From the NCBI GenBank assembly GCA_964609895.1, contig CAZSTG010000001.1, positions 59,202-123,201 of the forward strand: a stretch of 64,000 nt of DNA, written 5' to 3'. This document shows positions 12,056 through 38,118 of the stretch, piece after piece; positions within the stretch are counted from its first letter, which is position 1; each line of letters begins with the position of its first letter. Position numbers and translations under genes: made by a program. Under the pieces are notes generated by a model that had not been told where the DNA came from, made no database searches, and saw nothing but the letters and a program-made list of their open reading frames with translations. This DNA is from an uncultured Gammaproteobacteria bacterium. Lineage in GTDB: Bacteria; Patescibacteriota; Microgenomatia; UBA10105; UBA927.

Positions 12056-12889
12056 TTATTTTTGAACAATCGGATAATATATGGCAGTTCCGCCGAATCC
12101 TTCCTTGAATTTGGTAAACCCCTTCCACTGACGATATTGTTTTGGTGTGCGTTCATCCCAAACACCCACAAAATCAAATTGTCTGCATCGTTTTGCATGG
12201 GCAAACTTTAAGGCCTCCCAAACAAGAAGCGTTGGTGCAAACATGTGTTTTCCTTTTTTGGTCGCCCCTGCTATCCAGTAATAACACGTGTCACCAGAGA
12301 GAAGAAGAAGTACACCTCCGACAATGATATCTTTTTCGGTTTTTGCAAGAAGAATATGTGCCTGCTTTTTTATATGAAAAATATTCCATAATCGGTCAAT
12401 GCCATATGTAGTTATGCCCCCAAACATTCCGGCTGATTTGTTTTTTATTGCAATGAGATCCTGAATATTGTCTGATGGAAGAATAGAAATCCCGTATTTT
12501 TCCGCACGCCTCACTGCTCTGCGCTTAGCGGGCGTCATGGAAGAAAACATGTGTTCCTCCGAAGGAGTCACGTCAACACACATAGTTTTTGTTGGAAGAA
12601 ACGGTGAAGTTATGATTTTGAAAAATTTTGAAAGTGAACGGATATAGTTTGTAAAAAACGTAGGATTTTCGTCCGCTTTTGCCTCAACAAGAAGTGTGCG
12701 TACATGAAGCTTTTGCAGAAAAGGAATGAGTTTCGGAATATACGGAAGATGTTCCGGTCGCTGTATCTTTGCCATGACGCCGACGAAAGGGAGATGTTTA
12801 TAAAAAACCGCAACATCGTCAATGGTCTGTACCGACCACCCAAGGGATAGAATATATTGCCGATACAAAGGGGTCTGTTGTACTTCCAT
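12056..12889 (-). CDS. FemAB-family aminoacyl-tRNA-dependent peptidyltransferase (peptidoglycan interpeptide bridge formation), copy 2
   Basis: FemAB/MurM-like sequence (...DIIVGGVLLLLSGDTCYYWIAGATKKGKHMFAPTLLVWEALKFAHAKRCRQFDFVGVW...). The start is reset to ATG 12887-12889 (MEVQQTPLYRQY), immediately after the stop of the upstream paralogue. Confidence 0.75.
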   Translation of the reverse strand: MEVQQTPLYRQYILSLGWSVQTIDDVAVFYKHLPFVGVMAKIQRPEHLPYIPKLIPFLQKLHVRTLLVEAKADENPTFFTNYIRSLSKFFKIITSPFLPTKTMCVDVTPSEEHMFSSMTPAKRRAVRRAEKYGISILPSDNIQDLIAIKNKSAGMFGGITTYGIDRLWNIFHIKKQAHILLAKTEKDIIVGGVLLLLSGDTCYYWIAGATKKGKHMFAPTLLVWEALKFAHAKRCRQFDFVGVWDERTPKQYRQWKGFTKFKEGFGGTAIYYPIVQK

Positions 12890-12890
12890 A

Positions 12891-13820
12891 CTAGGTAAGA
12901 AGTTTGAGCAGTGTCCATCGTGCGGCGTCTGCAAACCTGTAGAGTTGGTAGAGAAACGGTCTGAGAACGAGGTCATAAGATCCGATAAACGTGACATGTT
13001 TGGGATTATATCCGGTTTTAAACCTGTGAAATCCATACCATGGATCTTTCTCGTCCGGTTTCGGCCCCATTGCGCCCCAGAGATCAAAGGTGGTGCATTG
13101 TTTTTGTTTTCCCCATTTCATAAGCTCCCATAAAAGCAGATTTGGCGCCATGACTTCCCGATGATTTCTTGAGGATGCGCCGTAGGGATAATACATGACA
13201 CCGTCGTAGACGAAGAGAATCCATGCGGCAAGCGTTTCACCTTTGTATGTTGCCGTGAACAGATGGGCAATGCCGGCATCGTACATAATACGCCACATGG
13301 TTTTATGATACAGAGGACTATGTGCATAGAATTTTTGCCGTTCTGTCGTTTCTTTTTCAAGTCTGAGATATTCAGAAAATGCGATATCAGTGTTATCCTC
13401 CTGAATTTTTACCCCATGTTTTTCTGCAAGTCTAATGTTATACCTAGTTTTTGGATGCATCGCGGCAAGTAAATCTGACTCTGATTTGGTCAGGTCGAGT
13501 ATATAGGTATATTTTGTAAATAATGGGTGATGCGACGGTCGGATTGATTTTAAATTCTTTATTCCAGATTCTTTATTCTCCAGTATGTTTGGTTCAAACT
13601 GGATATAGATCGCATTATGTTTTTTCCCTGCAGTAATTGCTTCCTTCATCATTGTGTGTGTGATCATTGGACCTTTTGGCATATATCCGATAGTCCAAGC
13701 AGTATGCGGAATGTTGTGGAACGAAATATATCCCGAAGAAATCTTTTCGGTGGCGATACCCATGGCGGTACGGAAATCAGCCCAAGCGGCGGTTTGTAAC
13801 GGGTGTACCGGAGATCTCAT
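12891..13820 (-). CDS. FemAB-family peptidyltransferase (FemX/MurM-like), copy 1
   Basis: MRSPVHPLQTAAWADF (classic FemAB N-terminus)...AAWILFVYDGVMYYPYGASS...MAPNLLLWELMKWGKQKQCTTFDLWG. Confidence 0.8.
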   Translation of the reverse strand: MRSPVHPLQTAAWADFRTAMGIATEKISSGYISFHNIPHTAWTIGYMPKGPMITHTMMKEAITAGKKHNAIYIQFEPNILENKESGIKNLKSIRPSHHPLFTKYTYILDLTKSESDLLAAMHPKTRYNIRLAEKHGVKIQEDNTDIAFSEYLRLEKETTERQKFYAHSPLYHKTMWRIMYDAGIAHLFTATYKGETLAAWILFVYDGVMYYPYGASSRNHREVMAPNLLLWELMKWGKQKQCTTFDLWGAMGPKPDEKDPWYGFHRFKTGYNPKHVTFIGSYDLVLRPFLYQLYRFADAARWTLLKLLT

Positions 13821-15940: not shown

Positions 15941-16600
15941 ATGACTCCTCCGTTTTTGATCGGAAACTGGAAAAGCAACATGACGGTAGTCGCAATGCAG
16001 GAATGGTTTTCATTGTATCGTCCAGCTCCCCATATCACCACTGTGCTGTGTGTTCCGTTTACATTGTTGTCATCCGCAGCCGCAGTAATTCAGGAAAAAC
16101 AATTGGGGATTTTTTTGGGTGCTCAGGATGTGTCTCCATTTGGGAACGGACCATATACAGGGGAAATCAGCGCAGATATGATTCGGGAATTTGCCACGTA
16201 TGTGCTGGTGGGACATTCCGAACGAAGACAATATTTTAATGAATCCGCGGAAGAACTTGCATTCCAGTCATTGCAGGCAAAAACAGCCGGACTTACTGTT
16301 ATATACTGCACAAGTGATGCGTCGGAAGTGTTGCCAAAGTCGATTGATCTAGTAGCATATGAACCGGTGGAAGCTATCGGAACTGGAATGCCGGAAGATC
16401 TAGATACAATCCGGTCAGTGTGTTCCAATTTCAGGAAACTGTCAGGAAAACCCGTTATGTATGGGGGAAGCGTTACGGATGAAACGCTCACAAGTATTGT
16501 AAAAACCAATGCTGTCGACGGTCTGTTGGTGGGTGGCGCAAGTCTGGATCCCGAAAAGTTTTCGGCGATTGGGGAACTATACACCAATATGCTTATATGA
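15941..16600 (+). CDS. tpiA: Triosephosphate isomerase
   Basis: MTPPFLIGNWKSNMT...YVLVGHSERRQYF...AYEPVEAIGTG...GGSV. Start ATG 15941, head-to-head and 2-20 bp from the pcrA start. Confidence 0.88.
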   Translation: MTPPFLIGNWKSNMTVVAMQEWFSLYRPAPHITTVLCVPFTLLSSAAAVIQEKQLGIFLGAQDVSPFGNGPYTGEISADMIREFATYVLVGHSERRQYFNESAEELAFQSLQAKTAGLTVIYCTSDASEVLPKSIDLVAYEPVEAIGTGMPEDLDTIRSVCSNFRKLSGKPVMYGGSVTDETLTSIVKTNAVDGLLVGGASLDPEKFSAIGELYTNMLI

Positions 16601-17613
16601 GACGCAGATCATTTTCCATTGCAAGTGCCGTTGTTTTTTTGTCGCTGGTCATAGTGCTAGTGTTTGGTGTTGTAAAACTGGTGAAATTGAATACAGACTT
16701 TTCCAAAAATACGGGATTGAGTTTGGTAACGATAGGAAAACTTCTTTTAGACGGGGGCGCACCACTGAAAACAACGGACGACAGGGTGAATATTCTCTTG
16801 CTTGGTATGGCGGGAGGTATCCATGATGGTCCCGATTTGACCGATACTATTCTCATCGTGTCCTTCGAAACAAAAAAAAGGAGCATATCACTGTTATCAC
16901 TTCCTCGTGACATCTGGTCTGACGCATTGAAAGACAAGATAAACAGCGCATACCATTACGGCGAAGTAAAAAAAACAGGAGGCGGCATTGTACTTGCACG
17001 CGCGATCATGGAAGACGTGACAGGTCTGCCCATGCATTATGTGGTGACACTGGATTTTACACAGTTTGAAAATCTTATTGATGTCGTCGGTGGGATTGAT
17101 GTAAACGTCGCCAGTGCCTTTACCGATACGGAATTTCCGATTGCAGGGAAGGAAAATGACGAATGCGACGGCGATCCGAATTATGCATGCCGGTATGAAA
17201 CAATTCAGTTTGCATCAGGAATACAGCATATGGACGGGGCAACGGCACTTAAATATGTACGAAGCAGACATGCGGAAGGGGATGAGGGAACGGATTTTGC
17301 CAGAGGAAGAAGACAGCAGGATGTTATTTTGGCGCTCAAGGAAAAAATCATGAATTTGCGGCCATGGTTTCACCCATCTGTTGCCAAAAAATTGCTTGCT
17401 GCCGCTGATACGGCGACAGATACGGATATGACCATTGGAGAACAATTAACGATAGGTAAAAAGGCATTACAGGTATCCGGATCGATGCAGAAGATTTCCA
17501 TTGAACATCTGTTGACTGTTCCGCCGGCATGGTTGTACGGCAGATATGTCCTTGTTCCAGAGACAGATTACGATACGGTGCATGCATATATACGGCAGGA
17601 ACTTCTCAAATAA
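16597..17613 (+). CDS. LytR-CpsA-Psr (LCP) family cell-envelope phosphotransferase
   Basis: N-terminal TM helix, then ...NILLLGMAGGIHDGPDLTDTILIVSF...SLLSLPRDIW...VVTLDFTQFENLIDVVGGIDV. ATGA overlap with the tpiA stop. Confidence 0.85.
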   Translation: MRRRSFSIASAVVFLSLVIVLVFGVVKLVKLNTDFSKNTGLSLVTIGKLLLDGGAPLKTTDDRVNILLLGMAGGIHDGPDLTDTILIVSFETKKRSISLLSLPRDIWSDALKDKINSAYHYGEVKKTGGGIVLARAIMEDVTGLPMHYVVTLDFTQFENLIDVVGGIDVNVASAFTDTEFPIAGKENDECDGDPNYACRYETIQFASGIQHMDGATALKYVRSRHAEGDEGTDFARGRRQQDVILALKEKIMNLRPWFHPSVAKKLLAAADTATDTDMTIGEQLTIGKKALQVSGSMQKISIEHLLTVPPAWLYGRYVLVPETDYDTVHAYIRQELLK

Positions 17614-17664: not shown

Positions 17665-19263
17665 TTAGAGGATAAGTCCGAGAATGAGCAAGAGAATGCT
17701 TCCTGCAACACTGATTGCCCCGATGATTCCAGGACCCTCTCCTGCTACAGGAATTTTTGGAGTTGGTTGACCAGTTGGTGTCGGTGTTGCTGGAGTGTCG
17801 GCAATGAGCCGTACTCTGGTTGGAGTCGGAGTTTGATGTTGTTCTGCGGGTGTTGCAGTGGGATCTGTATATGCCGTAGTCGGCGTAGCCTGAACAACAG
17901 GAGGTGTTGTCGGTGTCGGAGTTGGTTCGTCTGTCGGTGTCGGAGTGACGGCACTTTCGTCCGTGTATCCGATAAATACGTTAAAGTCCTCAAAATCCCA
18001 GTTTGCATCCAATTGTCCGCGCTGATCGGTGTCTTGTCCCTGAATTGCGTCTGCCCAACACTGATACGGTCTGTCTACACCAGAAGTGGTTTTAATGCCG
18101 GAGTCGGACAGGGAAGAAATATACGAACTGATGTCCCGTGTCGGTCCCGGATACCTACCGCATTTATTAGCACTGGTCGGGAGAATAAATCCGACGGAAT
18201 TCGTATCTTCGTTTCCGAGTCGTACGGCAATGGTATATGTTCCTGCGGTCACTGTTGTTTCAAAATTGCCGTCGCTGATTTTTGTCATAGAAGCAGCGGA
18301 TCCGCCTTTGGTCATCGATACAGTGGTGTCAGCATGCACGTTTACCATATGTATGCGAATTTTGCCGTCGGAATCAAAGGTTACGGTATTCAACTTGCTT
18401 CTGTCCGGATCGCATACAATGCTGTTTTCGCTCGGTGCCGCTTCTTCAGGATAATGATAACAATTTCCCGGCGGTGTTTCGCAGTTGTATGGTGCTTTGG
18501 AACAGTCTGTTCCTTTTGGATAACATCCCATGCAACAGCAGACTGAGTCGTTTCTGTTACAGCATAAGTTGCCGCAGTCGAGCGGACAGAAACTGCTGGT
18601 TACCGTTCCCTTGCTTGCACATGCTCCTGTTGTATACAGTACTCTGCCGATGATACAAGAGCCTGTTCCACCTCCACCACCACCGATAGGCGTTGGAGTG
18701 ATGGAAGGATAGACAGCCCTGCTTCTAATTTCCGCAAATTGCGGAGACTGTGTTATGTAATAAATGGCAATGGGAAGAGTAAAAACCAGAAATAACAGGG
18801 TCGCTATCAGAATGCCTTTTTCTGACTTTTTCTTTTTCTGCTGAGGCGGTTTTTTTTCTTGCGTGTCCTGTGTTTCTGTTTCCCCAGAAGGAACAATGAC
18901 AGATTCTGTTGCCGCTTTCACCATAGGTTCCGGAATCGGAGGCGGTGGAGGATCTGGAGATACAGGTGCTATCGGTTGCTGACTGACAGTATCAGGAACA
19001 GGAATTTCTACCGGCGGTTTCTCGGGAATTTCCGGAGGAGGTGCGATAGGAGAAGGTGCTATCGGTTCAGGAAGTATGGGAATTGCCTCGGGCGACTCTA
19101 AAGATGGTGTTTCCGGTTTCACCTGCGTATCAGAAGTGTTTTGAATTGTACCGGCAGCAGATTCTTCAGGTGATGCGTTTTCATCAACTGGAAGCGGTGT
19201 TTCACCTAACGCTTTTGCAGCATCATCTATGACTTGCTGTGGAGATACCGGTTCATCCGCCAT
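17665..19263 (-). CDS. Cell-surface protein: N-terminal TM + 'EIRSRA' motif, Cys-rich module, Pro/Thr-rich linkers, C-terminal IPVAG-hydrophobic sorting signal
   Basis: ...ILIATLLFLVFTLPIAIYYITQSPQFAEIRSRAV...CPLDCGNLCCNRNDSVCCCMGCYPKGTDCSKAPYNCETPPGNCYHY...TPTPTDEPTPTPTTPP...KIPVAGEGPGIIGAISVAGSILLLILGLIL*. Start at ATG 19263 (MADEPV) or 19278. Confidence 0.7.
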   Translation of the reverse strand: MADEPVSPQQVIDDAAKALGETPLPVDENASPEESAAGTIQNTSDTQVKPETPSLESPEAIPILPEPIAPSPIAPPPEIPEKPPVEIPVPDTVSQQPIAPVSPDPPPPPIPEPMVKAATESVIVPSGETETQDTQEKKPPQQKKKKSEKGILIATLLFLVFTLPIAIYYITQSPQFAEIRSRAVYPSITPTPIGGGGGGTGSCIIGRVLYTTGACASKGTVTSSFCPLDCGNLCCNRNDSVCCCMGCYPKGTDCSKAPYNCETPPGNCYHYPEEAAPSENSIVCDPDRSKLNTVTFDSDGKIRIHMVNVHADTTVSMTKGGSAASMTKISDGNFETTVTAGTYTIAVRLGNEDTNSVGFILPTSANKCGRYPGPTRDISSYISSLSDSGIKTTSGVDRPYQCWADAIQGQDTDQRGQLDANWDFEDFNVFIGYTDESAVTPTPTDEPTPTPTTPPVVQATPTTAYTDPTATPAEQHQTPTPTRVRLIADTPATPTPTGQPTPKIPVAGEGPGIIGAISVAGSILLLILGLIL

Positions 19264-19342
19264 GAAAAATACCAGCAAAAAATCAGTACTATATATTAGA
19301 GTAAACTATCTAAGATGAAACTTCAACAAACAAGATCTGTGT

Positions 19343-20278
19343 TTATAATGTTAATCCGATAAGCAGTAGTAGGACGCTGCCTAGTGCAGTGACGGATCCG
19401 AGTAATCCCGGACCTATGCCTGACACCGGCATTGCCTGACCGGCTGTATCCTCAACAGTTTCCTGCGTTGCTGTTTCACTGGTGGTTTCCGGACAGGAGC
19501 ATGTTGATTCCGCCGGACAACTTGCATTTCTGCATCTGTTTATTCCATTTACGGAAGAACAGGTAAGTCCCGATGTACAGTCATTGTCATTTGCACAGGA
19601 AGCGTCGCAGGCGGCAGAATTTGGTTCATTCGTTGGTGCAGGTGTCGGTGCTTCAGTTGGTTCAGGAGTATCGGTCGGATTTGCGTCAGTTGTTTCTGCC
19701 TTCGCTCCGACTCCTTCACCGGACGCACAGCCTGCTTTTGCGCAGGACTGATCAAAACAAAGGTTGCCGCAGTCGCCGGTATATACACCGCAACTTCCTC
19801 CACACGTTTCTGCATTGCATGGTTTTAGTCCAGAAAGCGGCGGCTTTTGTATGTATTTGCATCCACCAGCAACACCATCTTCCTTTACGCGTACATTTGG
19901 TAATTCTCCTGTTACAATATCTTTTGTCGCAACTTCAACAGGACATTGCGCGGGGGCGGATGTGCCGCAACTCCAAACATATCCGCTTTCTGTATCCACA
20001 CATTTACACATATATCCTGTATTTTTCCCCGTTGTTTTGCTGATTTGGCACGCCTGCGTCCCTTTGGTACAAGATTCTGAAGCGGCGCGGCTTCTGGTAT
20101 CTGCAAGTTGCTGCTGCTTGGCAATATAGTAGACTGCTACGGGAAGTGTAACAATCAGAAGAATAATTCCTATTAATAACGGGGTTTTTCCGCCCCCAGT
20201 TTTTTTTCCTGCAGGCTTATCCTTTGCCGGTTCCGGCGGTTGCATCGGGGGAATGATAAAAGTGTCTGTGGTTGGCAT
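19343..20278 (-). CDS. Cell-surface Cys-rich protein, paralogue of 17665..19263 (N-terminal TM + 'DTRSRAA', C-terminal MPVSG-hydrophobic sorting signal)
   Basis: ...LLIGIILLIVTLPVAVYYIAKQQQLADTRSRAAS...multiple Cys-rich blocks (CGGSCGVYTGDCGNLCFDQSCAKAGC...CDASCANDNDCTSGLTCS...)...QAMPVSGIGPGLLGSVTALGSVLLLLIGLTL*. Confidence 0.7.
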   Translation of the reverse strand: MPTTDTFIIPPMQPPEPAKDKPAGKKTGGGKTPLLIGIILLIVTLPVAVYYIAKQQQLADTRSRAASESCTKGTQACQISKTTGKNTGYMCKCVDTESGYVWSCGTSAPAQCPVEVATKDIVTGELPNVRVKEDGVAGGCKYIQKPPLSGLKPCNAETCGGSCGVYTGDCGNLCFDQSCAKAGCASGEGVGAKAETTDANPTDTPEPTEAPTPAPTNEPNSAACDASCANDNDCTSGLTCSSVNGINRCRNASCPAESTCSCPETTSETATQETVEDTAGQAMPVSGIGPGLLGSVTALGSVLLLLIGLTL

Positions 20279-20312
20279 ACATTGTGCACTGTTAGTGTTG
20301 CATGTGGCAGTT

Positions 20313-21641
20313 TTACGTACGTTCTTTGACGAACAACAACGAACCGCCGCCGATAATCAATGCCGATCCGAGTAAAAGAAGCAGTAATGTCGGAATATAT
20401 GATCCGCTTGTCGGCATCGGTTCGGACGCAAGATCTGCTTCCTCTGTGGCCACCTCTTCAGGCGTCGGTGTCGGCGTTTCCAGTTCTGCTGATGCAGTTG
20501 CATCTCCCAAAACTTGTGTGCCGCTTTTCATCACAATAAATGTATGTGTAATGACAATGGGTTTGTTTTTTGCATCTACACTGCTGATGGTGACACGTTG
20601 TTTTCCCGGAGAGAGTGATTTTGTCGATGTATATTTCCATAATCCGTCCTTATCAACAGTTGTCGTTCCCGTTGTCGGATTGGTGAGTCCGAGAGAAACG
20701 GTTACTTTTTTTCCTGCCACACCAGTTCCCCTGATCTGCGGCCGGTATGTGGACACGGTAGCCCCCTCCATTGGTGCGGTAAGGGAAACAGCGCCCGTTG
20801 TTGCGCCCAATACCGCCGTTTGTGTGTTGGTTGACTTCAACGCGGCAGGTGTTGTGCTTGTGTTTGCAGCAGAAGCAAGGGAGGAAGATACAGGTTTTTT
20901 TGCATCGCGGTTTCGGAAATCATAGGTCTGTCCGAGAATAATATCGGGTACAGGAGCATCATTGAATGTGTCTGTCAGCACGTTTGATTCCGTTGTTCCT
21001 TTTTGGATAACCAGTGTTTCCGTATACCGGTCGCTGCTTGGCACATAGGAACTTCCGTCAGGTGTCCGTATTGTGGAAAGGGGAATGATCCATGAGCCGG
21101 AATTTCTGACGAGTGTGGAAAGCGTCTGACTGCCGGTAAGAGTAAGAAAAACAAGCGCGCCTTCCGCCGGTGTTGTTTCATCCAGCGTTACCTTTCCGTA
21201 TGCAGGATCGATATTCGGTGGCATGTCGGTAAGTGATGCAAAAGTGGAAACCTGATAGCTTTTTTTATCCGTCGGATATTTTTTCCCGTTGGAGAGAATC
21301 GTAACGTCAAACAACGTCGCAGGAGGCAGCGATCGTATAGACACGCTGTGGGTATTATATTTACCTAATTTTCCGGTTGCGTCCCGCTCGTCGAATCCAG
21401 AATATTTTTTTCCATTGGTATCAACAGCCAATATGGTTCCGCTTGCCGTTTCCTCTGTCTGCCAGACGATAGTAAAACTTGTATCAGTAATGTTGGTTAC
21501 CGTTACCTGCTGCGGTTCTATGGAAGCGCCGGCACGCGTCTGTGTTTTGGAAAATAACTGAAACAGAAAGCTGATTCCTGTCATCAATAGCACGACAAGA
21601 ATGATGCCGACAATCGTAGGTATTTTTCTTGGCCCTTGCAT
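20313..21641 (-). CDS. Cell-surface protein with Fn3/Ig-like beta domains. N-terminal TM + 'TQTRAGAS', C-terminal PMPTSG-TM-KERT sorting signal.
   Basis: MQGPRKIPTIVGIILVVLLMTGISFLFQLFSKTQTRAGAS...VTVTNITDTSFTIVWQTEE (Fn3-like)...EPMPTSGSYIPTLLLLLLGSALIIGGGSLLFVKERT*. Confidence 0.7.
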   Translation of the reverse strand: MQGPRKIPTIVGIILVVLLMTGISFLFQLFSKTQTRAGASIEPQQVTVTNITDTSFTIVWQTEETASGTILAVDTNGKKYSGFDERDATGKLGKYNTHSVSIRSLPPATLFDVTILSNGKKYPTDKKSYQVSTFASLTDMPPNIDPAYGKVTLDETTPAEGALVFLTLTGSQTLSTLVRNSGSWIIPLSTIRTPDGSSYVPSSDRYTETLVIQKGTTESNVLTDTFNDAPVPDIILGQTYDFRNRDAKKPVSSSLASAANTSTTPAALKSTNTQTAVLGATTGAVSLTAPMEGATVSTYRPQIRGTGVAGKKVTVSLGLTNPTTGTTTVDKDGLWKYTSTKSLSPGKQRVTISSVDAKNKPIVITHTFIVMKSGTQVLGDATASAELETPTPTPEEVATEEADLASEPMPTSGSYIPTLLLLLLGSALIIGGGSLLFVKERT

Positions 21642-21650
21642 AATAAATCA

Positions 21651-21845
21651 TTAGAACTTGGTTTTTTGTTCTAATATATCCAGTGTATCAGTATCGAGCT
21701 TCGGTGTTAAGGGTGTGATCACCTGATTGACGGTGGAAGACACCGTTGACGTTTTGGTGGTTTTTACCAGTTCAAAAAATATCCATGACAAGACGGTGAC
21801 AAACGTGAATATTGAGATAAGGAATAAGTCGCGGTCTGATTTCAT
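21651..21845 (-). CDS. Small single-pass membrane protein downstream of pilO (possible pilus-assembly accessory)
   Basis: 64 aa: MKSDRDLFLISIFTFVTVLSWIFFELV... Tightly packed 7 bp after pilO. No recognisable family. Confidence 0.35.
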   Translation of the reverse strand: MKSDRDLFLISIFTFVTVLSWIFFELVKTTKTSTVSSTVNQVITPLTPKLDTDTLDILEQKTKF

Positions 21846-21851
21846 AGCGTG

Positions 21852-22502
21852 TTAGGGTGTTGCATAATACGCATTCATTTTTAATACCAGCTGAATGGAC
21901 GGCGAAGCGGAGATGGTTGTCGCCTGTTTTTTGTTCGGCGTGAATGAGATGGATTCAATGGTTATAATTCTGCGCATGGCAATGCAATTGCGTAAAAATG
22001 AGGAAAGCGCATCGTAATTGCCTTCAATAGACATGGAGACGGCAAAATCAATCTGTTTGACTGTATAGGATTTGGATGCACTTGCACTGGCAGACGGCAG
22101 CATGGGGGCGGAGGCAACCTGAATGGCGGAAATGGATGCGCCGGCGCTCGTTGCAATGTCGCGCAGTTGTCTTACGACATCTATGGCATTTGGATCGGTT
22201 GGCGTTGCGTCTTGGATGTAGGATGCGCGTTGTCCTATGGATTCAAGCAGCGCCTGCGCCTCTATCAGCGCTTCTATTTTTTCATCCATTTTTTTGTTCA
22301 CCGATTTTTTATCGACAATTTCTCGCCTTAGGTAGAGAATGGTCTGCACTGTCGGTTTGACTGCATACCACCCGAACAATGCAACAACCAAGAAAATAAA
22401 TATAACGGTTGAATACACCCGTGTTTTCGGTTTTGCCAAAATCGGTTCAAGCGAATGATAGTATTTTCTGTATTGTTCCGGTAGGTTGAATTTGCTTGCC
22501 AT
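21852..22502 (-). CDS. pilO: Type IV pilus assembly protein PilO-like
   Basis: N-terminal cytoplasmic segment, one TM helix (VIFIFLVVALFGWYAV), coiled coil, then a periplasmic domain. Position directly after pilN. Confidence 0.6.
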   Translation of the reverse strand: MASKFNLPEQYRKYYHSLEPILAKPKTRVYSTVIFIFLVVALFGWYAVKPTVQTILYLRREIVDKKSVNKKMDEKIEALIEAQALLESIGQRASYIQDATPTDPNAIDVVRQLRDIATSAGASISAIQVASAPMLPSASASASKSYTVKQIDFAVSMSIEGNYDALSSFLRNCIAMRRIITIESISFTPNKKQATTISASPSIQLVLKMNAYYATP

Positions 22503-22509
22503 AATCGTA

Positions 22510-23076
22510 TTATTTTTTCCCTGCGGCGGTGTTGACGCCCACCAGTTCGGCTTCCAAAGTATATTGGATGCCTATACTCGTTGCTTTGTCGATAGTGCCG
22601 ATTTCAATATTTTTGAGTGATTTGGTTGCATTGAGATTTAACAGGAGTTGTGAAAAACTCTGCACTGTAAGGGAAGTGATCTGCGCGGTAACTTTTCCGT
22701 TATTTATTGACAGCGTTTGGAAATAGGTACCGGACGGAAGAAGCGTGTGCAGTGTCTGGATTGTGTCCGTCGGTTTACTTTGGCGGTCGAGTAGCACTTT
22801 GATTTTGTTTAACGAATCCTGTGTCCTTTTGAATGTTATTTCCAAACCCTGATTATAGGCAATGATGTCCTGTTTTTGTGAAATTTCATCTTTCAGGTCT
22901 GTGAGTTGCCGGTCAAGGCTGAACCGAGAAATAAAAGCGATAAGCACAATCATTTCCGTCGTAATCATGATATATCTTCCATACGTGGTGATCCACGTGA
23001 TCATTCGTCCGACGGGGGAGAGTTCTTGTTTTGATGAACCCAGAAGATTTATCTCAACTGTTGATGTGGCAGGCAT
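22510..23076 (-). CDS. pilN: Type IV pilus assembly protein PilN-like
   Basis: MPATSTVEINLL (the conserved PilN 'INLL' N-terminus)... one TM helix (IMITTEMIVLIAFI), then coiled coil (LTDLKDEISQKQ). Confidence 0.65.
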   Translation of the reverse strand: MPATSTVEINLLGSSKQELSPVGRMITWITTYGRYIMITTEMIVLIAFISRFSLDRQLTDLKDEISQKQDIIAYNQGLEITFKRTQDSLNKIKVLLDRQSKPTDTIQTLHTLLPSGTYFQTLSINNGKVTAQITSLTVQSFSQLLLNLNATKSLKNIEIGTIDKATSIGIQYTLEAELVGVNTAAGKK

Positions 23077-23125
23077 GCATTCATTATAAGGGGAAAAACA
23101 AGAATCCTCAATGATGGGAGTTGCT

Positions 23126-23365
23126 TTACTTGGCTTGAACGAGTTTGGAAAGACGTGACTTGAGTCGTGCTGCTTTATTTTTGTGGATAACGTGCATTTT
23201 TACCGCTTTATCAAGCGTCGCGAATACAGCAGAAAGCTGTTTGGCGTTTGGTGTTTTTCGCATGTCTTTCACGACACTGCGGACATACGCCCGTTTCGTT
23301 GCGGTTGCAACAGAGCGTTTTTTGTCGTGACGCAGTTTCTTTAATGCTTGTGCGGTTATTGGCAT
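23126..23365 (-). CDS. rpsT: 30S ribosomal protein S20
   Basis: MPITAQALKKLRHDKKRSVATATKRAYVRSVVK...KNKAARLKSRLSKLVQAK. Typical S20. Confidence 0.9.
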   Translation of the reverse strand: MPITAQALKKLRHDKKRSVATATKRAYVRSVVKDMRKTPNAKQLSAVFATLDKAVKMHVIHKNKAARLKSRLSKLVQAK

Positions 23366-23432
23366 AGGGGAAAGTATAGCAGAGAGGTATCTATCCGGTC
23401 AAGGTTGGAGTGCGTTATAATAGACAACAGAA

Positions 23433-25088
23433 ATGAAATCCTTGCTGGAATTACTTACCAAAAAACAGTCTTCCGTCCGGTCGGCAGCTATCGTGTTAAT
23501 GGCAATGGTGTTTGTTTCCCGCATATTGGGATTGGTCAGAGACCGGCTGTTGGCGGCACGGTTTTCTCCGGATGAACTGGGTGTATATCTGGCGGCATTC
23601 CGTATGCCGAACTTTTTGTTTGAACTGTTGGTTATGGGTGCACTCACATCCGCGTTTATTCCTGTCTATACGAAATATGTGGCAAAAGGAAAACAGGATG
23701 AGGCGTGGAGGATTTCCAACACCCTCATTACTGTATCAGTTGCAATTCTTCTTGTTATTTCTATTCCGCTTCTTATCTGGACGAGTCAGATTTCAGCACT
23801 CATTGCTCCGGGATTTTCCCCTGCGGAAATCGACCGCATGGTGCAGTTTACGCGGTTTATGGTGGTATTGCAGGTATTTCCGCTGTTAATCGGCAATTTT
23901 TTTACCGGCATTCTGCAGTCACACAAGATGTTTTTTCTTCCGGCGCTCGCCCCTGTGGTGTATAACATGGGAATTATTCTGGGAATTCTGCTGTTCAGCG
24001 GAAGCATCGGGTTGTGGGGACCGGTGGTGGGTGTCGGTATTGGTGCGTTTTTGTTTATGAGCATTCAGATACCGCCGCTAATGAAACTGGGATTCAGGCA
24101 AAAGCCGTCGATGGATCTTCGGAATGAGGGTGTACGTGAAGTGGGAAAACTGATGCTGCCCCGTACGGCAGGTCTTGCTGTTTCGCAGATTGACACCACT
24201 GTTGACCTGATATTGTCTTCACTACTCGGTACACGCATGGTAACGGTATTCAGTTTTGCGCAGCAACTCCAACAGTTGCCCATCGGCCTGTTTGGAGCAA
24301 CGGTTGCGCAGGCGGCGTTTCCTTTGTTGTCTCAGGCGTCTGCAAGCGACGATAAGGAGCAATACATGAAAACGATTACCTCTGCGCTCAACCAGATCAT
24401 GTTTTTCATCATGCCGATCTCCGTATTATTCATCGTACTCCGCATTCCCATTGTCCGGTTGGTGTTTGGCGCATCGCGGTTTGACTGGCAGGCAACAGTA
24501 TTGACGGGCATGACCTTGTCGGCGTTTAGCGTGTCCCTGTCCGCGCAGGCGATATCACAGTTGCTGACCCGCGGATTCTATGCGCTTTTTGACACCATGA
24601 CACCGATGATCATCGCCGTCATCACCATTGTCATGAACACGGTGTTAAGTATAGTGTTTGTCCAGATAGTGCACCTGCCGGTTTGGTCGCTTGGACTTTC
24701 CACAACGATTGCCAGTTTTGTCAATGTGTTTCTGCTTTTTGTTTATCTGGAGCGGCGGCTGGGAAGTCGGATTTTGGTGAAATTGCTTACAACACCAGCA
24801 AAAATTATTATTGCCTCTTTGGTAACCGGCGTTGCACTGTACGTCCCGCTGAAATTATTCGACCAGCTGATTTTTGATACCACCAGAACATTCGGCCTCT
24901 TGCTCCTTGCCGGCGTAAGCAGTGTGATCGGTCTTGCTGTGTATTTGTTTTTAGTGTGGATGTTCGGCGTAACGGAAGCAAAATCGTTCATTGCACTGCT
25001 GACTAAATTCAGACATCCAAAGCAGATTATTTTGGAGCCGGCAAACGAAGTGGTAGGGAACGGCAGCCAGAATACGCCGATGACATAA
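23433..25088 (+). CDS. murJ: Lipid II flippase MurJ (MviN)
   Basis: ...VFVSRILGLVRDRLLAARFSPDELGVYLAAFRMPNFLFELLVMGALTSAFIPVY... canonical MurJ N-terminus. 14 predicted TM segments. Confidence 0.9.
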   Translation: MKSLLELLTKKQSSVRSAAIVLMAMVFVSRILGLVRDRLLAARFSPDELGVYLAAFRMPNFLFELLVMGALTSAFIPVYTKYVAKGKQDEAWRISNTLITVSVAILLVISIPLLIWTSQISALIAPGFSPAEIDRMVQFTRFMVVLQVFPLLIGNFFTGILQSHKMFFLPALAPVVYNMGIILGILLFSGSIGLWGPVVGVGIGAFLFMSIQIPPLMKLGFRQKPSMDLRNEGVREVGKLMLPRTAGLAVSQIDTTVDLILSSLLGTRMVTVFSFAQQLQQLPIGLFGATVAQAAFPLLSQASASDDKEQYMKTITSALNQIMFFIMPISVLFIVLRIPIVRLVFGASRFDWQATVLTGMTLSAFSVSLSAQAISQLLTRGFYALFDTMTPMIIAVITIVMNTVLSIVFVQIVHLPVWSLGLSTTIASFVNVFLLFVYLERRLGSRILVKLLTTPAKIIIASLVTGVALYVPLKLFDQLIFDTTRTFGLLLLAGVSSVIGLAVYLFLVWMFGVTEAKSFIALLTKFRHPKQIILEPANEVVGNGSQNTPMT

Positions 25089-25097
25089 AAAAACGCA

Positions 25098-26504
25098 TCA
25101 CTTCATCCGTTGCACTTCCAGCTGTATGACACTTTGGGGAGTTGCCACAACCGTTTTTTTCAGCACGCCGTTCGTAACCGTTTCCTGACTTTGTGTTGTT
25201 TTTCCGGAGAGTATTGTTTCCTTATATGTATATGTACCGTTGGGGAGATGCATAAATGTGACAGGAACCTGTTCCGTATGTGTTCCCTTGGCGTCAAAGT
25301 TTACCAGCAGCACTTTGATGATGTTGTTTTTGACTGATGCAAATCCGGTAACCCATGATCCTTCACCCGAAAGTTGCAGCCGTGTTCCTTTCATCGCATC
25401 AAAAAATGAATAGACATAATAGCGCGGTTTGATCTTTTTTCCGTTTGTCGGATGTGTAATCAGCCCCCAGCCGCTTCCGTTTTCCTGATTCGGTCCATCC
25501 ACAAGTTCAAAGGAAAACAGATACGTCGGTCCGCCGGAAATAAGTTCCCGAAGTACTGATGCGGTATGAGCAGTCCCGAATGAGGTACCGTATGCCGTGC
25601 TTTTTGCGCCGGTAAAACCGAATTCCGTAATGATGGTCGGTTTGGTGGTGTATGCGGGATATGCCATGAGCCAACCACTCAAATTATGCTGGTCTGTGGT
25701 GAACTGCTTGGGATTGGCTAAGTAGGAATGCCACGAAAAAAAGTCCAACCGGCTGCCGGTGTTGATCACTCCAAGAATCCAGTTTTTGTAGAGACCTGTT
25801 GTTGCCGGTCCGCCGAACATAAACGGATTGACGTTGTTTGCCTGATTTGCTCCGGTTGCCGCATACCGGTATAACGTCAGATAGTTTTTTTCTCCGCTCA
25901 GTTTCCATGAGCCGAACTGGTCAAGATCTGGTTCGTTCCATACTTCGTAGTACATGCCACTGATGTTTTTCCCCGATTTTCCGCTGTAATGCTCTATTGT
26001 TTTCTGCACAACTGTCGCCCAATCGTTCCAGTCGTTCGGCGGATTGATGACAACGCCGTCTTTTGCAATAGCTTGTGGCATAAAAGAAAGAGACAGAAAC
26101 GGTTTTGCTCCTGTTGCCAGAATGGTATTGACGGCAGTATCAAGCTTTGAAAAATCAAAGGAAAGTGTGCTGCCGTTTTTTGACACAACGTCATAATGAT
26201 CAAAAATATGATCCAGTCTGATAACTTTTGGTGACAGTGCCTTTGTTTCCTGCAGGACAGGGGCGATCATATCGCCTGCCTCTTCACCGCCCTGTGCAAA
26301 AGCGTGGAAAAAGTCAGTGTTGATTTCCTCCAGTTTTGTCTGCGTGTCTATGACAATGGTTGCTTTTGTGCCGGATGCTTTGGAAACCAGCTGTGTTGTT
26401 TTGTATACCACGGCGATCAGAAGTGGAATAAATACAAGGAGGGCAAGGATGGAAGTAAATGTGGTGAATTTGGATGGTGCGGTTTTTTCCAGAAATGATG
26501 TCAT
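25098..26504 (-). CDS. Secreted/anchored clan GH-A glycoside hydrolase (GH39/GH5-like)
   Basis: N-terminal TM helix. ...YYEVWNEPDL (catalytic acid/base 'NEP' of clan GH-A)...ITEFGFTG (nucleophile Glu context). Confidence 0.65.
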   Translation of the reverse strand: MTSFLEKTAPSKFTTFTSILALLVFIPLLIAVVYKTTQLVSKASGTKATIVIDTQTKLEEINTDFFHAFAQGGEEAGDMIAPVLQETKALSPKVIRLDHIFDHYDVVSKNGSTLSFDFSKLDTAVNTILATGAKPFLSLSFMPQAIAKDGVVINPPNDWNDWATVVQKTIEHYSGKSGKNISGMYYEVWNEPDLDQFGSWKLSGEKNYLTLYRYAATGANQANNVNPFMFGGPATTGLYKNWILGVINTGSRLDFFSWHSYLANPKQFTTDQHNLSGWLMAYPAYTTKPTIITEFGFTGAKSTAYGTSFGTAHTASVLRELISGGPTYLFSFELVDGPNQENGSGWGLITHPTNGKKIKPRYYVYSFFDAMKGTRLQLSGEGSWVTGFASVKNNIIKVLLVNFDAKGTHTEQVPVTFMHLPNGTYTYKETILSGKTTQSQETVTNGVLKKTVVATPQSVIQLEVQRMK

Positions 26505-27298
26505 ACAGTCTGTTTTGCTTTTGCGTATACAACACCGCTCACTGCAATGCAGCAGATACCTGCAATAAGCAGTGCGACGGTTGTTTCTGTTGATCCCGTT
26601 ACGGGCACTTCGTCACTGCCGCCTCCCATGCCGTCGGTGGTAATGAGCGCGCTGTCTGTTGCCTCTGTTTCGGGTGTCACTGTCGGTTCTGCAGGAGTCT
26701 CCGTGGGTGTGACAGCGGAAAGGAGTGCTGCCTGCGTGGGTGTCGGCATGACGGTAGTTGTGGTGGTGGTTGTTGATGTCCCGAGAATATTTACGGAAGC
26801 GGTTCCCATGGTGGTAATCACATTGGTTGATTCCGCCAGTCCTGATGCAAATGTGGTGGTGTCAAATTTCAACTGGACGGGCGCGGTTGTTCCTGTTTTT
26901 CCCTTAAAGCGGATGACGGCAATAGTGCCGGTACCTGTTATGGGGGAAGTGGTGCTGTTAGCAGCTACGGTAATAGATGCGGTGCCCGCCCCTACGATTC
27001 CGGAAGCGGTGATTTTTGGTGCCAATGCGCCATTCGTGATGCTTGTGGCTTCGAGTTTCGTGGAATCGAAGGTAACAACGACTTTGACCGCGGTAACATT
27101 GTTTGTGCCTGTGTTGATGTCGACGTTGACGGCAAATTGTTCATCCACTGGCTTAGTGATGGTTGTCGGATTAAAAGAAAGAGCGGTTGCTGGCGCGGCG
27201 CGGCTGCGGATATCCTGCTGCCTTCCCACCAAGTAGACTGATGCAGGGACCGCGACCAAAAGAAGTATACCAACAATAAGTAAGACGATTTTTTTCAT
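26501..27298 (-). CDS. Thr-rich cell-surface protein. N-terminal TM + 'DIRSRAAP', C-terminal VPVTG-TM-KAKQTV sorting signal.
   Basis: MKKIVLLIVGILLLVAVPASVYLVGRQQDIRSRAAP...TSTTTTTTTVMPTPTQ...EVPVTGSTETTVALLIAGICCIAVSGVVYAKAKQTV*. Start at ATG 27296-27298. Confidence 0.7.
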   Translation of the reverse strand: MKKIVLLIVGILLLVAVPASVYLVGRQQDIRSRAAPATALSFNPTTITKPVDEQFAVNVDINTGTNNVTAVKVVVTFDSTKLEATSITNGALAPKITASGIVGAGTASITVAANSTTSPITGTGTIAVIRFKGKTGTTAPVQLKFDTTTFASGLAESTNVITTMGTASVNILGTSTTTTTTTVMPTPTQAALLSAVTPTETPAEPTVTPETEATDSALITTDGMGGGSDEVPVTGSTETTVALLIAGICCIAVSGVVYAKAKQTV

Positions 27299-27344
27299 CC
27301 TATATTTAGTATGCCGTAAACAGACAAGGGAAGACAATAGGGTA

Positions 27345-27381
27345 TTGACAGATATTAGCACTCGTTATATATTACTGCTAA
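27345..27381 (+). promoter_or_regulatory. Sigma70-like promoter (TTGACA-17-TATATT) overlapping a CIRCE-like HrcA operator (TTAGCACTC-N9-TACTGCTAA)
   Basis: ttgaca 27345-27350; TTAGCACTC 27355-27363; N9 gttatatat; tactgctaa 27373-27381 (7/9 to GAGTGCTAA). Lies ~85 nt upstream of hrcA. Confidence 0.75.
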
Positions 27382-35730: not shown

Positions 35731-35759
35731 TTCACCCAAAGTTAGTAATGGGTTATAAT
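35731..35759 (+). promoter_or_regulatory. Candidate promoter TTCACC-17-TATAAT for the first methyltransferase gene (the -10 lies inside the annotated ORF start; the true start may be ATG 35772)
   Basis: ttcacc 35731-35736; tataat 35754-35759; in-frame ATG 35772 (MNKNFQSTKPIVIDLF). Confidence 0.4.
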
Positions 35760-36851: not shown

Positions 36852-36880
36852 CTAAAAATTTTAATTGCATCACGTTCAAT

Positions 36881-38110: not shown

Positions 38111-38118
38111 TAAGATAA

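What the first reader, a model, noticed from the sequence alone, without database searches (positions are those of the whole stretch)
17665..27361. Non-canonical C-terminal sorting signals [MIV]P[VT][AST]G-(short linker)-hydrophobic helix(-basic tail) on four surface proteins
C-termini: ...KIPVAGEGPGIIGAISVAGSILLLILGLIL*, ...AMPVSGIGPGLLGSVTALGSVLLLLIGLTL*, ...EPMPTSGSYIPTLLLLLLGSALIIGGGSLLFVKERT*, ...EVPVTGSTETTVALLIAGICCIAVSGVVYAKAKQTV*. The tripartite layout (motif, hydrophobic segment, optional basic tail) mimics LPXTG sorting signals, but the pentapeptide is xPV[STA]G rather than LPXTG/LAXTG. A sortase gene is present in the window (61187..61891). This may be a variant sortase recognition motif in this lineage.
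Basis: partly seen in the sequence, partly recalled or inferred. Interest (0 to 1): 0.75.

Follow-up and report, generated by a model that had tools for sequence, protein, structure and literature searches.

The report
Variant sortase anchoring signals in CPR bacterium
Four surface proteins of an uncultivated ultra-small (Microgenomates/CPR) bacterium end in a relaxed version of the Gram-positive LPXTG cell-wall anchoring signal (x-P-x-Ser/Thr-Gly plus a helix). Hundreds of relatives keep it, and it most likely serves the single, unclassified sortase encoded in the same window.

Summary
Four minus-strand genes end in IPVAG, MPVSG, MPTSG or VPVTG, then a hydrophobic helix. Two of the four also have a basic tail. 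Chance is excluded: about 5e-8 within the window, and blind motif discovery on two sets of homologs (75 and 141 tails) returns the same motif, with P in 91-95% and G in 87-90%.

The lineage consensus is [V/I/M/P/L]-P-x-[S>T]-G. Leu at position 1 occurs in only 7-14% of homologs, and Ser is commoner than Thr at position 4. About a third of tails lack a cationic end.

Each protein also has an N-terminal export signal and a Pro/Thr-rich stalk, which is the classic layout of a sortase substrate. The sortase at 61187-61891 is genuine: Pfam and TIGR01076 score above cut-off, His145/Cys214/Arg223 are invariant, and an AlphaFold model (pLDDT 90.7) matches class C/D/A sortases at TM about 0.8. It meets no class model.

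One window tail passes the NCBIfam LPXTG_anchor cut-off, as do about 12% of homolog tails. No other sorting-signal model matches any tail.

The most likely mechanism is sortase cleavage at S/T|G and attachment to the wall. This is inferred, not shown.

It is a lineage-wide variant of a known system and I found no description of it in the paper library. Interest is moderate.

Side finding: the sortase gene is almost always preceded by a Baseplate_J-like membrane protein gene.

The parts
17665..19278 (-). Substrate 1. Surface protein of 537 codons from the TTG; the likely true start is M7 at 19260. It has a long Pro-rich cytoplasmic N-region, a TM helix, RSRA, a Cys-rich ectodomain and a PT-rich stalk, and ends IPVAG-EGPG-helix with no basic tail.
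   Evidence: positional orthologs L093 18178-19842 (IPVAG) and L094 17823-19184 (VPVAG)
17665..17754 (-). Sorting signal of substrate 1: IPVAGEGPGIIGAISVAGSILLLILGLIL*
19343..20278 (-). Substrate 2. Cys-rich surface protein of 311 aa. It has a conserved N-terminal peptide MPTTDTFIIPP, a TM helix and RSRA, and ends MPVSG-IGPG-helix with no basic tail.
   Evidence: seven full-length homologs keep [MV]P[VIT]SG plus GPGxxG...GS[VI]xLLxxGLA[LF]*
19343..19432 (-). Sorting signal of substrate 2: MPVSGIGPGLLGSVTALGSVLLLLIGLTL*
20313..21641 (-). Substrate 3. Protein of 442 aa with weak, sub-threshold fn3-like and Big_13-like matches. It has a signal anchor plus TQTRA and ends MPTSG-helix-KERT. It always follows pilN-pilO and a 64-aa gene.
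20313..20417 (-). Sorting signal of substrate 3: MPTSGSYIPTLLLLLLGSALIIGGGSLLFVKERT*
   Evidence: weak NCBIfam LPxTATN-signal hit
26501..27361 (-). Substrate 4. Cohesin-domain protein; the likely true start is 27298, giving 265 aa. It has a signal peptide plus RSRA and a PT-rich stalk, and ends VPVTG-helix-KAKQTV.
   Evidence: (PF00963, 4e-09)
26501..26608 (-). Sorting signal of substrate 4: VPVTGSTETTVALLIAGICCIAVSGVVYAKAKQTV*
   Evidence: the tail alone scores 17.6 bits on TIGR01167 LPXTG_anchor against a cut-off of 15.9
18715..18726 (-). RSRA after the N-terminal helix of substrate 1; putative signal-peptidase site.
20084..20095 (-). RSRA after the N-terminal helix of substrate 2.
21531..21545 (-). 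TQTRA after the N-terminal helix of substrate 3.
27197..27208 (-). RSRA after the N-terminal helix of substrate 4.
61187..61891 (+). Sortase of 234 aa, the presumed processing enzyme. It has a basic N-terminus, one TM helix and an outward-facing catalytic domain with His145, Cys214 (TLVTC) and Arg223.
58803..61184 (+). Membrane protein of 793 aa, ending 2 nt before the sortase gene. It has a cytoplasmic N-domain, one TM helix and a Baseplate_J-like ectodomain. It is a conserved operon partner of the sortase; its role is unknown.
12056..13820 (-). Two tandem FemAB-family genes. They could build the peptidoglycan cross-bridge that supplies the amine nucleophile. This is context and inference only.
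23433..25088 (+). MurJ lipid II flippase, inside the substrate cluster. Context only.
16597..17613 (+). LCP (LytR-CpsA-Psr) wall-polymer ligase, flanking the substrate cluster. Context only.

Best explanation
The four tails are cell-wall sorting signals of the LPXTG type, in the relaxed form used by Microgenomates and other CPR bacteria: [V/I/M/P/L]-P-x-[S/T(/A)]-G(/A), a hydrophobic helix, and an optional cationic end.

Proposed steps:
(1) The proteins are exported by Sec through an N-terminal helix followed by a conserved [ST]-[RQK]-A site (RSRA). This is inferred from sequence.
(2) The C-terminal helix holds the protein in the membrane. This is read from the sequence.
(3) The membrane-anchored sortase (61187-61891; His145/Cys214/Arg223) cleaves between Ser/Thr/Ala and Gly and forms an acyl-enzyme. 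This is inferred from the family mechanism.
(4) An amine resolves the acyl-enzyme, most likely from a lipid II or peptidoglycan cross-bridge. Two FemAB genes, MurJ and an LCP ligase are in the window. This is inferred.
(5) The Pro/Thr-rich stalk then spans the wall and displays the cohesin, fn3/Ig-like or Cys-rich domain.

The sortase belongs to a clade outside classes A-F. By sequence it is closest to class C.
For: - Anatomy: all four proteins have an N-terminal helix plus RSRA/TQTRA, a linker made 53-70% of P/T/S/A/E, the motif and a terminal helix.
- Blind EM motif discovery on the 25 residues upstream of the helix gives [VMI]-P-[VIT]-[ST]-G in the cohesin family (P 0.95, G 0.90). In the 442-aa family it gives [PVIL]-P-x-[ST]-G (P 0.91, G 0.87).
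- Counts: 68/75 and 106/139 strict; 73/75 and 124/139 relaxed.
- Synteny: orthologs in L093-L096 keep VPVTG/MPTSG/VPVSG/IPISG, MPTSG/MPTSG/VPTSG/IPTSG and MPVSG/IPVAG/VPVAG/IPVSG.
- HMMs: the tail of substrate 4 passes the TIGR01167 cut-off. 17 of 147 homolog tails match TIGR01167 and none matches any other C-terminal sorting-domain model.
- Enzyme: PF04203 5e-19 and TIGR01076 57.9 bits against a 39.35 cut-off. H145, C214 and R223 are invariant in 20 and in 114 homologs. The AF2 catalytic domain has pLDDT 90.7 and matches S. agalactiae SrtC1 (TMq 0.80), C. perfringens SrtD and class A sortases.
- Co-occurrence: contigs of 241,662, 1,020,031, 472,746, 389,955 and 327,799 bp each hold both a sortase and a substrate homolog, judged by matching contig lengths.
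- No exosortase, rhomboid or other sorting enzyme was found among about 40 window ORFs scanned against Pfam.
- Sortase is reported as near-ubiquitous in Microgenomates (PMC6744442).
Against: - There is no biochemical or proteomic evidence of cleavage.
- Position 1 is not Leu, and position 4 is Ser or Ala in three of the four window proteins. Wild-type S. aureus SrtA shows about a 40-fold preference for its expected LPETG substrate over the Ser-containing one (PMC9782347).
- Two of the four tails, and roughly 30-40% of homolog tails, lack the cationic end that the canonical signal has.
- Only 12% of homolog tails reach the LPXTG_anchor model.
- The substrates lie 34-43 kb from the sortase, so there is no operon link.
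- Only 64 kb of this genome was inspected. Canonical LPXTG proteins or another sorting enzyme could lie elsewhere.
Confidence: 0.8

Rival explanations
1. The tails are plain, uncleaved C-terminal membrane anchors. The P...G element is only a structural break or hinge before the helix, so the proteins stay tethered to the membrane.
For: Two window tails have no cationic end, unlike classical sortase signals. C-terminal helices of other CPR surface proteins have been read as membrane anchors (bioRxiv 10.64898/2026.03.03.709456). Most tails fall below the LPXTG_anchor threshold.
Against: A hinge would not need a fixed P-x-[S/T]-G register. Here P is at 91-95%, G at 87-90% and S/T at about 85-90% across representatives mostly below 50% identity to the query, inside otherwise unconserved linkers. 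The register is that of LPXTG, and a conserved, catalytically intact sortase is encoded on the same contigs.
Confidence: 0.1
2. The sortase does cleave the motif, but it acts like its closest solved relatives, the class C pilin polymerases. It would join the proteins to a lysine of another protein, in a fibre or on the conserved Baseplate_J-like partner, instead of joining them to peptidoglycan.
For: The best sequence and structure matches are class C sortases. Class C and pilin-specific signals often have a non-Leu position 1, such as IPXTG and IPNTG (PMC8225981). The sortase gene is coupled to a membrane protein gene in 54 of 56 loci. Substrate 3 always follows pilN-pilO.
Against: The class C HMM scores 58 bits against a cut-off of 160. 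The four substrates have unrelated domains, not a pilin-like repeat architecture. Only one sortase was found in the window and in each locus inspected, which suggests a housekeeping role. FemAB, MurJ and LCP genes are nearby. I did not test for a pilin motif or a lid.
Confidence: 0.07
3. A different, dedicated processing enzyme encoded elsewhere in the genome recognises the tails, for example one of exosortase, archaeosortase or rhombosortase type, or an unknown one. The sortase would then serve other substrates.
For: Some known non-sortase signals also contain Pro and Gly before a helix; VPDSG-CTERM and PGF-CTERM are examples from my own knowledge. Only 64 kb of the genome was seen.
Against: None of 147 homolog tails (E<=0.015) and none of the four window tails (E<=10) matched any such NCBIfam sorting-domain model. 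No such enzyme is in the window. No alternative set of sortase substrates was seen in the window or the loci.
Confidence: 0.03

Closest known systems
LPXTG cell-wall sorting signal with a class A housekeeping sortase (S. aureus SrtA paradigm)
   Same: Both have an N-terminal export signal, a passenger domain and a low-complexity stalk. Both have a pentapeptide with Pro at position 2 and Gly at position 5, followed by a hydrophobic helix. The enzyme has a His-Cys-Arg triad and an N-terminal membrane anchor, and a single sortase serves several unrelated substrates.
   Different: Leu at position 1 is rare here (7-14%). Ser is commoner than Thr at position 4. The cationic tail is optional. The enzyme does not match the class A model at E<=1e-3.
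Class C (pilin-specific) sortases and their signals (IPXTG, IPNTG and similar)
   Same: They are the closest solved relatives by sequence (E 5e-13) and by fold (TMq up to 0.80). Their substrates tolerate I, V or F at position 1.
   Different: The class C HMM scores 58 bits against a cut-off of 160. There is no pilin operon, and the substrates are heterogeneous. Thr is not preferred.
Clostridioides difficile SrtB with (S/P)PXTG signals
   Same: A single sortase acts as housekeeping enzyme with a non-Leu position 1, including Pro. PPxSG and PPxTG are common in the 442-aa family, with P at position 1 in 30 of 124.
   Different: This enzyme has no match to class B. Ser at position 4 and V/I/M at position 1 dominate here.
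Class E sortases with LAXTG; class D with LPXTA
   Same: Both are lineage-wide single-position departures from LPXTG. xPxTA variants occur among the CPR homologs, with position 5 = A in 5/73 and 11/124.
   Different: Pro at position 2 is kept here. The class E and class D HMMs score only 44-48 bits against cut-offs of 160-165.
Engineered eSrtA(4S-9), specific for LPXSG
   Same: It recognises Ser at the scissile position (PMC9782347).
   Different: That enzyme is a laboratory-evolved class A sortase. Here a Ser-tolerant specificity appears to be natural and lineage-wide.
Sortase-anchored cohesin scaffoldins of cellulosomal Firmicutes (for example Ruminococcus flavefaciens ScaE; my own knowledge)
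   Same: A cohesin domain is followed by a sortase signal, next to a glycoside hydrolase gene.
   Different: This is a single small cohesin protein. No dockerin partner was identified in the window, and the organism is a CPR bacterium.

Membership tests
LPXTG-type cell-wall sorting signal (sortase substrate) | N-terminal secretion signal | tested here: met
   All four proteins have an N-terminal hydrophobic helix followed by [ST]-[RQK]-A (RSRA x3, TQTRA), which fits the -3/-1 rule. No signal-peptide predictor was available. Substrates 1 and 2 have unusually long N-regions.
LPXTG-type cell-wall sorting signal (sortase substrate) | Pentapeptide L-P-x-T-G | tested here: not met
   The window has IPVAG, MPVSG, MPTSG and VPVTG. 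P2 and G5 are kept, L1 is never present, and T4 is present in only one of four. The lineage consensus is x-P-x-[S>T]-G.
LPXTG-type cell-wall sorting signal (sortase substrate) | Hydrophobic segment directly after the motif, reaching the C-terminus | tested here: met
LPXTG-type cell-wall sorting signal (sortase substrate) | Positively charged tail after the helix | tested here: inconclusive
   It is present in substrates 3 and 4 (KERT, KAKQTV) and absent in 1 and 2. K/R occurs in the last 10 aa of 60% and 71% of homolog tails.
LPXTG-type cell-wall sorting signal (sortase substrate) | Score at or above the cut-off of NCBIfam TIGR01167 LPXTG_anchor | tested here: inconclusive
   Met by the tail of substrate 4 (17.6 against 15.9) and not by the other three. 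17 of 147 homolog tails match at an equivalent E-value.
LPXTG-type cell-wall sorting signal (sortase substrate) | Cleavage within the motif and amide linkage to peptidoglycan | not testable with these tools
   This needs enzymology or proteomics.
Sortase superfamily (PF04203 / TIGR01076) | Domain HMM above cut-off, His-Cys-Arg triad, sortase beta-barrel fold, membrane anchor | tested here: met
   PF04203 68.7 against 26.6 and TIGR01076 57.9 against 39.35. H145, C214 and R223 are invariant. AF2 pLDDT is 90.7 and Foldseek probability 1.00 to many sortases. An N-terminal TM helix is present.
Sortase classes A-F and GN | Score at or above the NCBIfam class model cut-off | tested here: not met
   Class C 58.2 against 160; SrtD 48.7 against 140; class E 47.9 against 160; class D 44 against 165; GN 28.9 against 158; class F 23.8 against 166. 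Classes A and B are not matched at all. The pattern is the same in 20 homologs.
Exosortase / archaeosortase / rhombosortase signals (PEP-CTERM, PGF-CTERM, VPDSG-CTERM, GlyGly-CTERM and others) | Match to the corresponding C-terminal domain HMM | tested here: not met
   No such family matched the four window tails at E<=10 or the 147 homolog tails at E<=0.015.
Exosortase / archaeosortase / rhombosortase signals | Cognate multi-pass processing enzyme in the genome | tested here: inconclusive
   None was found among about 40 window ORFs scanned against Pfam. The rest of the genome was not available.
Sortase-assembled pilins (class C substrates) | Pilin motif lysine (YPKN-like), E-box, CnaB/Ig pilin domains, and a lid in the sortase | not tested
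   The substrates have cohesin, fn3/Big_13-like and Cys-rich domains. I made no dedicated search for a pilin motif or a lid.

The most novel reading that the evidence does not exclude
CPR/Microgenomates sortases form a separate class of sortase system. The enzyme lies outside classes A-F and is obligately co-encoded with a Baseplate_J-like bitopic membrane partner. Its natural specificity is x-P-x-Ser/Thr-Gly, indifferent to Leu at position 1. Its signal often does without the cationic retention tail, and its acceptor or docking logic may differ from the Gram-positive paradigm, for example by depending on the partner or attaching to it.
Probability: 0.2. Interest if true: 0.65.

Novelty: new variant of a known kind. 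Interest (0 to 1): 0.42.

Why it matters
**Annotation.** Standard tools miss most of these tails. NCBI calls the closest orthologs 'cohesin domain-containing protein' and 'hypothetical protein', and only about 12% of tails reach the LPXTG_anchor model. A lineage-specific model would let the wall-anchored surface proteins of a huge uncultivated radiation be read from genomes. These organisms live attached to other cells, so their surface proteins are central to their biology.

**Interpretation.** C-terminal helices of CPR surface proteins are currently read as membrane anchors, for example for the Pam pilus chaperones and terminator. If those helices are preceded by xPx[S/T]G, the proteins would be wall-linked, not membrane-anchored. 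I could not check those sequences.

**Tools.** Natural sortases that accept Ser at the scissile position and ignore position 1 could extend orthogonal sortase ligation. At present that use relies on an engineered LPXSG enzyme.

**Caveat.** The mechanism itself is the familiar one, so the conceptual surprise is modest.

Tried and rejected
- **Genome-wide census of tails.** This was not possible. The genome-contig scan gave only 10 loci. Look-ups to extend the window failed or added only 3.5 kb.
- **Scan of sortase-centred loci.** I scanned 914 kb (L001-L090) for substrates. Few lie near the sortase: 10 motif-plus-helix tails in 789 called proteins, four of them the window's own. The loci served mainly as background and as a check for LPXTG.
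- **First AlphaFold run.** The full-length sortase with 20 sequences gave pLDDT 60, and I did not use it. A catalytic-domain run with 114 sequences worked.
- **Fold search for class assignment.** It confirms the sortase fold but does not separate classes cleanly: C, D and A are all at TMq 0.7-0.8.
- **Tail-only profile search of the big protein databases.** I considered it and dropped it. A profile of about 30 hydrophobic residues cannot reach significance against 10^9 sequences.
- **Chance explanation.** Rejected.
- **PEP-CTERM or VPDSG-CTERM-like identity.** Rejected.
- **Literature.** I found no paper in the held library that describes a CPR sortase motif. Papers mention only that CPR genomes encode sortase or 'sortase motifs'.

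Full report
**Observation.** The pentapeptides are IPVAG (17740-17754), MPVSG (19418-19432), MPTSG (20403-20417) and VPVTG (26594-26608). Each is followed within a few residues by a hydrophobic stretch that runs to the stop codon. Only the last two have basic residues after the helix.

No ORF of the window ends in LPXTG plus a helix. The pattern xPx[STA]G occurs 17 times in the 19,973 residues of the 54 called window proteins, and at 5.2e-4 per residue in 273,306 residues of window plus related loci. Eight window proteins have a C-terminal hydrophobic helix. Four of them carry the motif right in front of it, and the other four are transporters or a small ORF. By my arithmetic this has a chance probability near 5e-8.

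**Organism and enzyme.** The ORF at 61187-61891 is a sortase: PF04203 at 5e-19 and TIGR01076 at 57.9 bits against a 39.35 cut-off. Its close homologs are labelled Gottesmanbacteria, Microgenomates or Patescibacteria, and an identical copy sits on a 241,662-bp contig. It has a basic N-terminus and one transmembrane helix. His145, Cys214 (TLVTC) and Arg223 are invariant in 20 and in 114 homologs.

No class model is met. Class C scores 58 bits against 160, with D, E, F and GN lower and A and B not matched. The pattern is the same in 20 homologs. By sequence the nearest solved proteins are class C sortases: 5e-13, against 3e-5 for class A.

A first full-length AlphaFold model was poor. The catalytic domain modelled with 114 sequences reached pLDDT 90.7. 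It superposes on S. agalactiae SrtC1 (TMq 0.80), C. perfringens SrtD, C. diphtheriae SrtA and class A sortases. So this is a bona fide, catalytically intact sortase of an unclassified clade. Méheust et al. reported the sortase family as near-ubiquitous in Microgenomates (PMC6744442).

**Is the motif functional?** I asked whether relatives keep it.

- Cohesin protein family: 82 homologs, 75 with a C-terminal helix.
- 442-aa protein family: 2,545 hits at E<=1e-3; the 150 best cluster representatives were read, and 141 had a C-terminal helix (139 after dropping proteins over 1,000 aa).

I took the 25 residues before the helix and ran an expectation-maximisation motif search with no prior pattern. 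Both sets returned the same motif. The cohesin family gave [V .34/M .30/I .17]-P(.95)-[V/I/T]-[S .55/T .34]-G(.90). The 442-aa family gave [P .23/V .21/I .20/L .14]-P(.91)-x-[S .44/T .36]-G(.87).

Direct counts agree:

| Measure | Cohesin family | 442-aa family |
|---|---|---|
| Strict xPx[STA]G | 68/75 | 106/139 |
| Relaxed, allowing P at position 4 or A at position 5 | 73/75 | 124/139 |
| Leu at position 1 | 7% | 14% |
| Ser at position 4 | 58% | 48% |
| Thr at position 4 | 36% | 36% |
| K/R in the last ten residues | 60% | 71% |

The 311-aa protein has few homologs. All seven full-length ones keep [MV]P[VIT]SG, followed by a strikingly conserved GPGxxG...GS[VI]xLLxxGLA[LF]* tail with no basic residue. 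Proteins 1 and 2 share only their two ends, not their ectodomains. Both ends therefore behave as portable targeting modules.

**Synteny.** In four other Microgenomates contigs the gene order is the same as in the window: HrcA, cohesin protein, GH39-like, MurJ, S20, PilN, PilO, a 64-71-aa gene, the 442-aa protein, variable Cys-rich proteins, LCP, TIM. The positional orthologs end in VPVTG/MPTSG/VPVSG/IPISG, MPTSG/MPTSG/VPTSG/IPTSG and MPVSG/IPVAG/VPVAG/IPVSG.

Judged by matching contig lengths, contigs of 241,662, 1,020,031, 472,746, 389,955 and 327,799 bp each hold both a sortase and a substrate homolog. In more distant loci, where the sortase is 44-48% identical, IPVAG sits next to LPTTG (L071) and PPVSG next to LPKTG (L074). 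Position 1 is therefore relaxed, not re-specified.

**Which known signal is it?** Scanned alone, the tail of substrate 4 passes the NCBIfam LPXTG_anchor cut-off (17.6 against 15.9). Tail 3 weakly resembles an LPxTATN signal, and tails 1 and 2 match nothing. Of 147 homolog tails, 17 match LPXTG_anchor and none matches any exosortase, archaeosortase or rhombosortase-type domain. Pfam scans of about 40 window ORFs show no alternative sorting enzyme.

The rest of the anatomy is that of a sortase substrate. Each protein has an N-terminal helix followed by RSRA or TQTRA, which fits the -3/-1 rule. Each also has a stalk made 53-70% of P/T/S/A/E before the motif.

The neighbourhood is a cell-envelope locus. 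It holds an LCP ligase, MurJ, PilN/PilO and a GH39-like protein, plus two FemAB-family genes at 12056-13820. FemAB enzymes could build a cross-bridge nucleophile.

**Mechanism.** The best-supported reading is Sec export, retention by the C-terminal helix, sortase cleavage between Ser/Thr/Ala and Gly, and transfer to a wall amine. The sequence features and their conservation are shown. Cleavage, the acceptor and the wall linkage are inferred from the family mechanism (PMC8225981). I put this at about 0.8.

The rivals are:
- uncleaved membrane anchors, about 0.1, which are hard to reconcile with the fixed P-x-[S/T]-G register;
- class C-like protein-to-protein ligation, about 0.07;
- another processing enzyme, about 0.03.

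**Comparison with the known.** Natural departures from LPXTG are well documented (PMC8225981):
- IPXTG, FPXTG, LPXTS and LPXTN in S. agalactiae;
- IPNTG in BcpB;
- (S/P)PXTG for C. difficile SrtB;
- LAXTG for class E;
- LPXTA for class D.

Here the difference is one of degree and breadth. A whole lineage has essentially no Leu preference, has Ser at least as often as Thr at the scissile position, and often lacks the cationic tail. Wild-type S. aureus SrtA shows about a 40-fold preference for its expected LPETG substrate over the Ser-containing one, and LPXSG specificity had to be engineered (PMC9782347). The enzyme also sits outside the defined classes.

I found no paper in the held library that describes this. 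I therefore file it as a new variant of a known kind, of moderate interest.

**Side findings.**
- The sortase gene is preceded by a homolog of the 793-aa ORF 58803-61184 in 54 of 56 loci with enough upstream sequence. This holds even where the other synteny (AlaRS, the downstream phosphorylase-like gene) is lost. The protein has a cytoplasmic domain, one helix and a Baseplate_J-like ectodomain. PF04865 matches 17 of 28 members, and there is a weak hit to diffocin TRI-2.
- R[ST][RK]A occurs only 8 times in 273,306 residues. Five of these lie just after an N-terminal helix, and four of those five are in this window.

Noticed in passing
window 58803-61184 (+), with homologs in L001-L090 immediately upstream of the sortase: A 793-aa bitopic membrane protein ends 2 nt before the sortase gene. 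It has a conserved cytoplasmic N-domain, an acidic linker, one TM helix and a Baseplate_J-like ectodomain, and its C-terminus is conserved as ...LPxNxxNIxVxV. A homolog sits directly upstream of the sortase in 54 of 56 loci. This holds in distant lineages where the AlaRS and downstream-gene synteny is lost, which suggests a functional sortase partner. A precedent for sortase-adjacent modulators exists in Actinobacteria (SafA; my own knowledge).
   Followed up: partly
window 18715-18726, 20084-20095, 27197-27208 and 11173-12006 (protein N-terminus); L028 3329-4201: The motif [DE]-[IVT]-R-S-R-A lies about 8-12 residues after an N-terminal helix. R[ST][RK]A occurs only 8 times in 273,306 residues, and 5 of these are at this position, four of them in this window. 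One is in a 277-aa protein without a sorting signal. It looks like a lineage-specific, unusually conserved signal-peptidase region, possibly analogous to YSIRK-type signals.
   Followed up: partly
window 20237-20278 (N-terminus of the 311-aa protein) and 19200-19260 (N-terminus of the 537-aa protein): The cytoplasmic N-terminal peptides are far more conserved than the ectodomains. MPTTDTFIIPP is almost unchanged in the seven full-length homologs, which are 39-63% identical overall. MAD..PQQ[VLI]ID[DEN]AAK.L is shared with P0361 and L093. These N-regions are too long and too conserved for ordinary signal peptides.
   Followed up: partly
window 21651-21845 (-): An unannotated 64-aa membrane protein gene (MKSDRDLFLISIF...) lies between pilO and the 442-aa substrate gene. 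It is conserved in the same place in L093-L096. The 442-aa sortase-signal protein thus always follows pilN-pilO-small gene, and could be a wall-anchored part of the type IV pilus apparatus.
   Followed up: partly
window 25098-27361 (-): The cohesin-domain protein gene overlaps a GH39-like gene by 4 nt, and the pair is conserved in L093-L096. Weak hits to the cohesin query include dockerin-bearing (P0198, PF00404) or dockerin-like-ending (P0202) proteins. This hints at a minimal cohesin-dockerin display system anchored through the sortase signal.
   Followed up: partly
window 12056-13820 (-): Two tandem FemAB-family genes are present, which implies a peptidoglycan interpeptide bridge in this CPR bacterium. 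That bridge could be the sortase nucleophile.
   Followed up: no
window 35748-39117 (+): Two C5 cytosine DNA methylase genes are followed by an HNH endonuclease gene. This is probably a restriction-modification cassette inserted between housekeeping genes.
   Followed up: no
L095 18411-18662 and L096 17448-19103: In the variable slot between the 442-aa gene and LCP, some genomes carry proteins that end ...FDGSAWH* and have no sorting signal. The set of anchored proteins at this locus therefore turns over between species.
   Followed up: no
window 61187-61210 (sortase N-terminus): The cytoplasmic N-terminal peptide of the sortase (M-x-L-YRYVK) is invariant across 20 homologs, as is WxxWPI at the outer end of its helix. 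This is unusual conservation for a mere membrane anchor.
   Followed up: no
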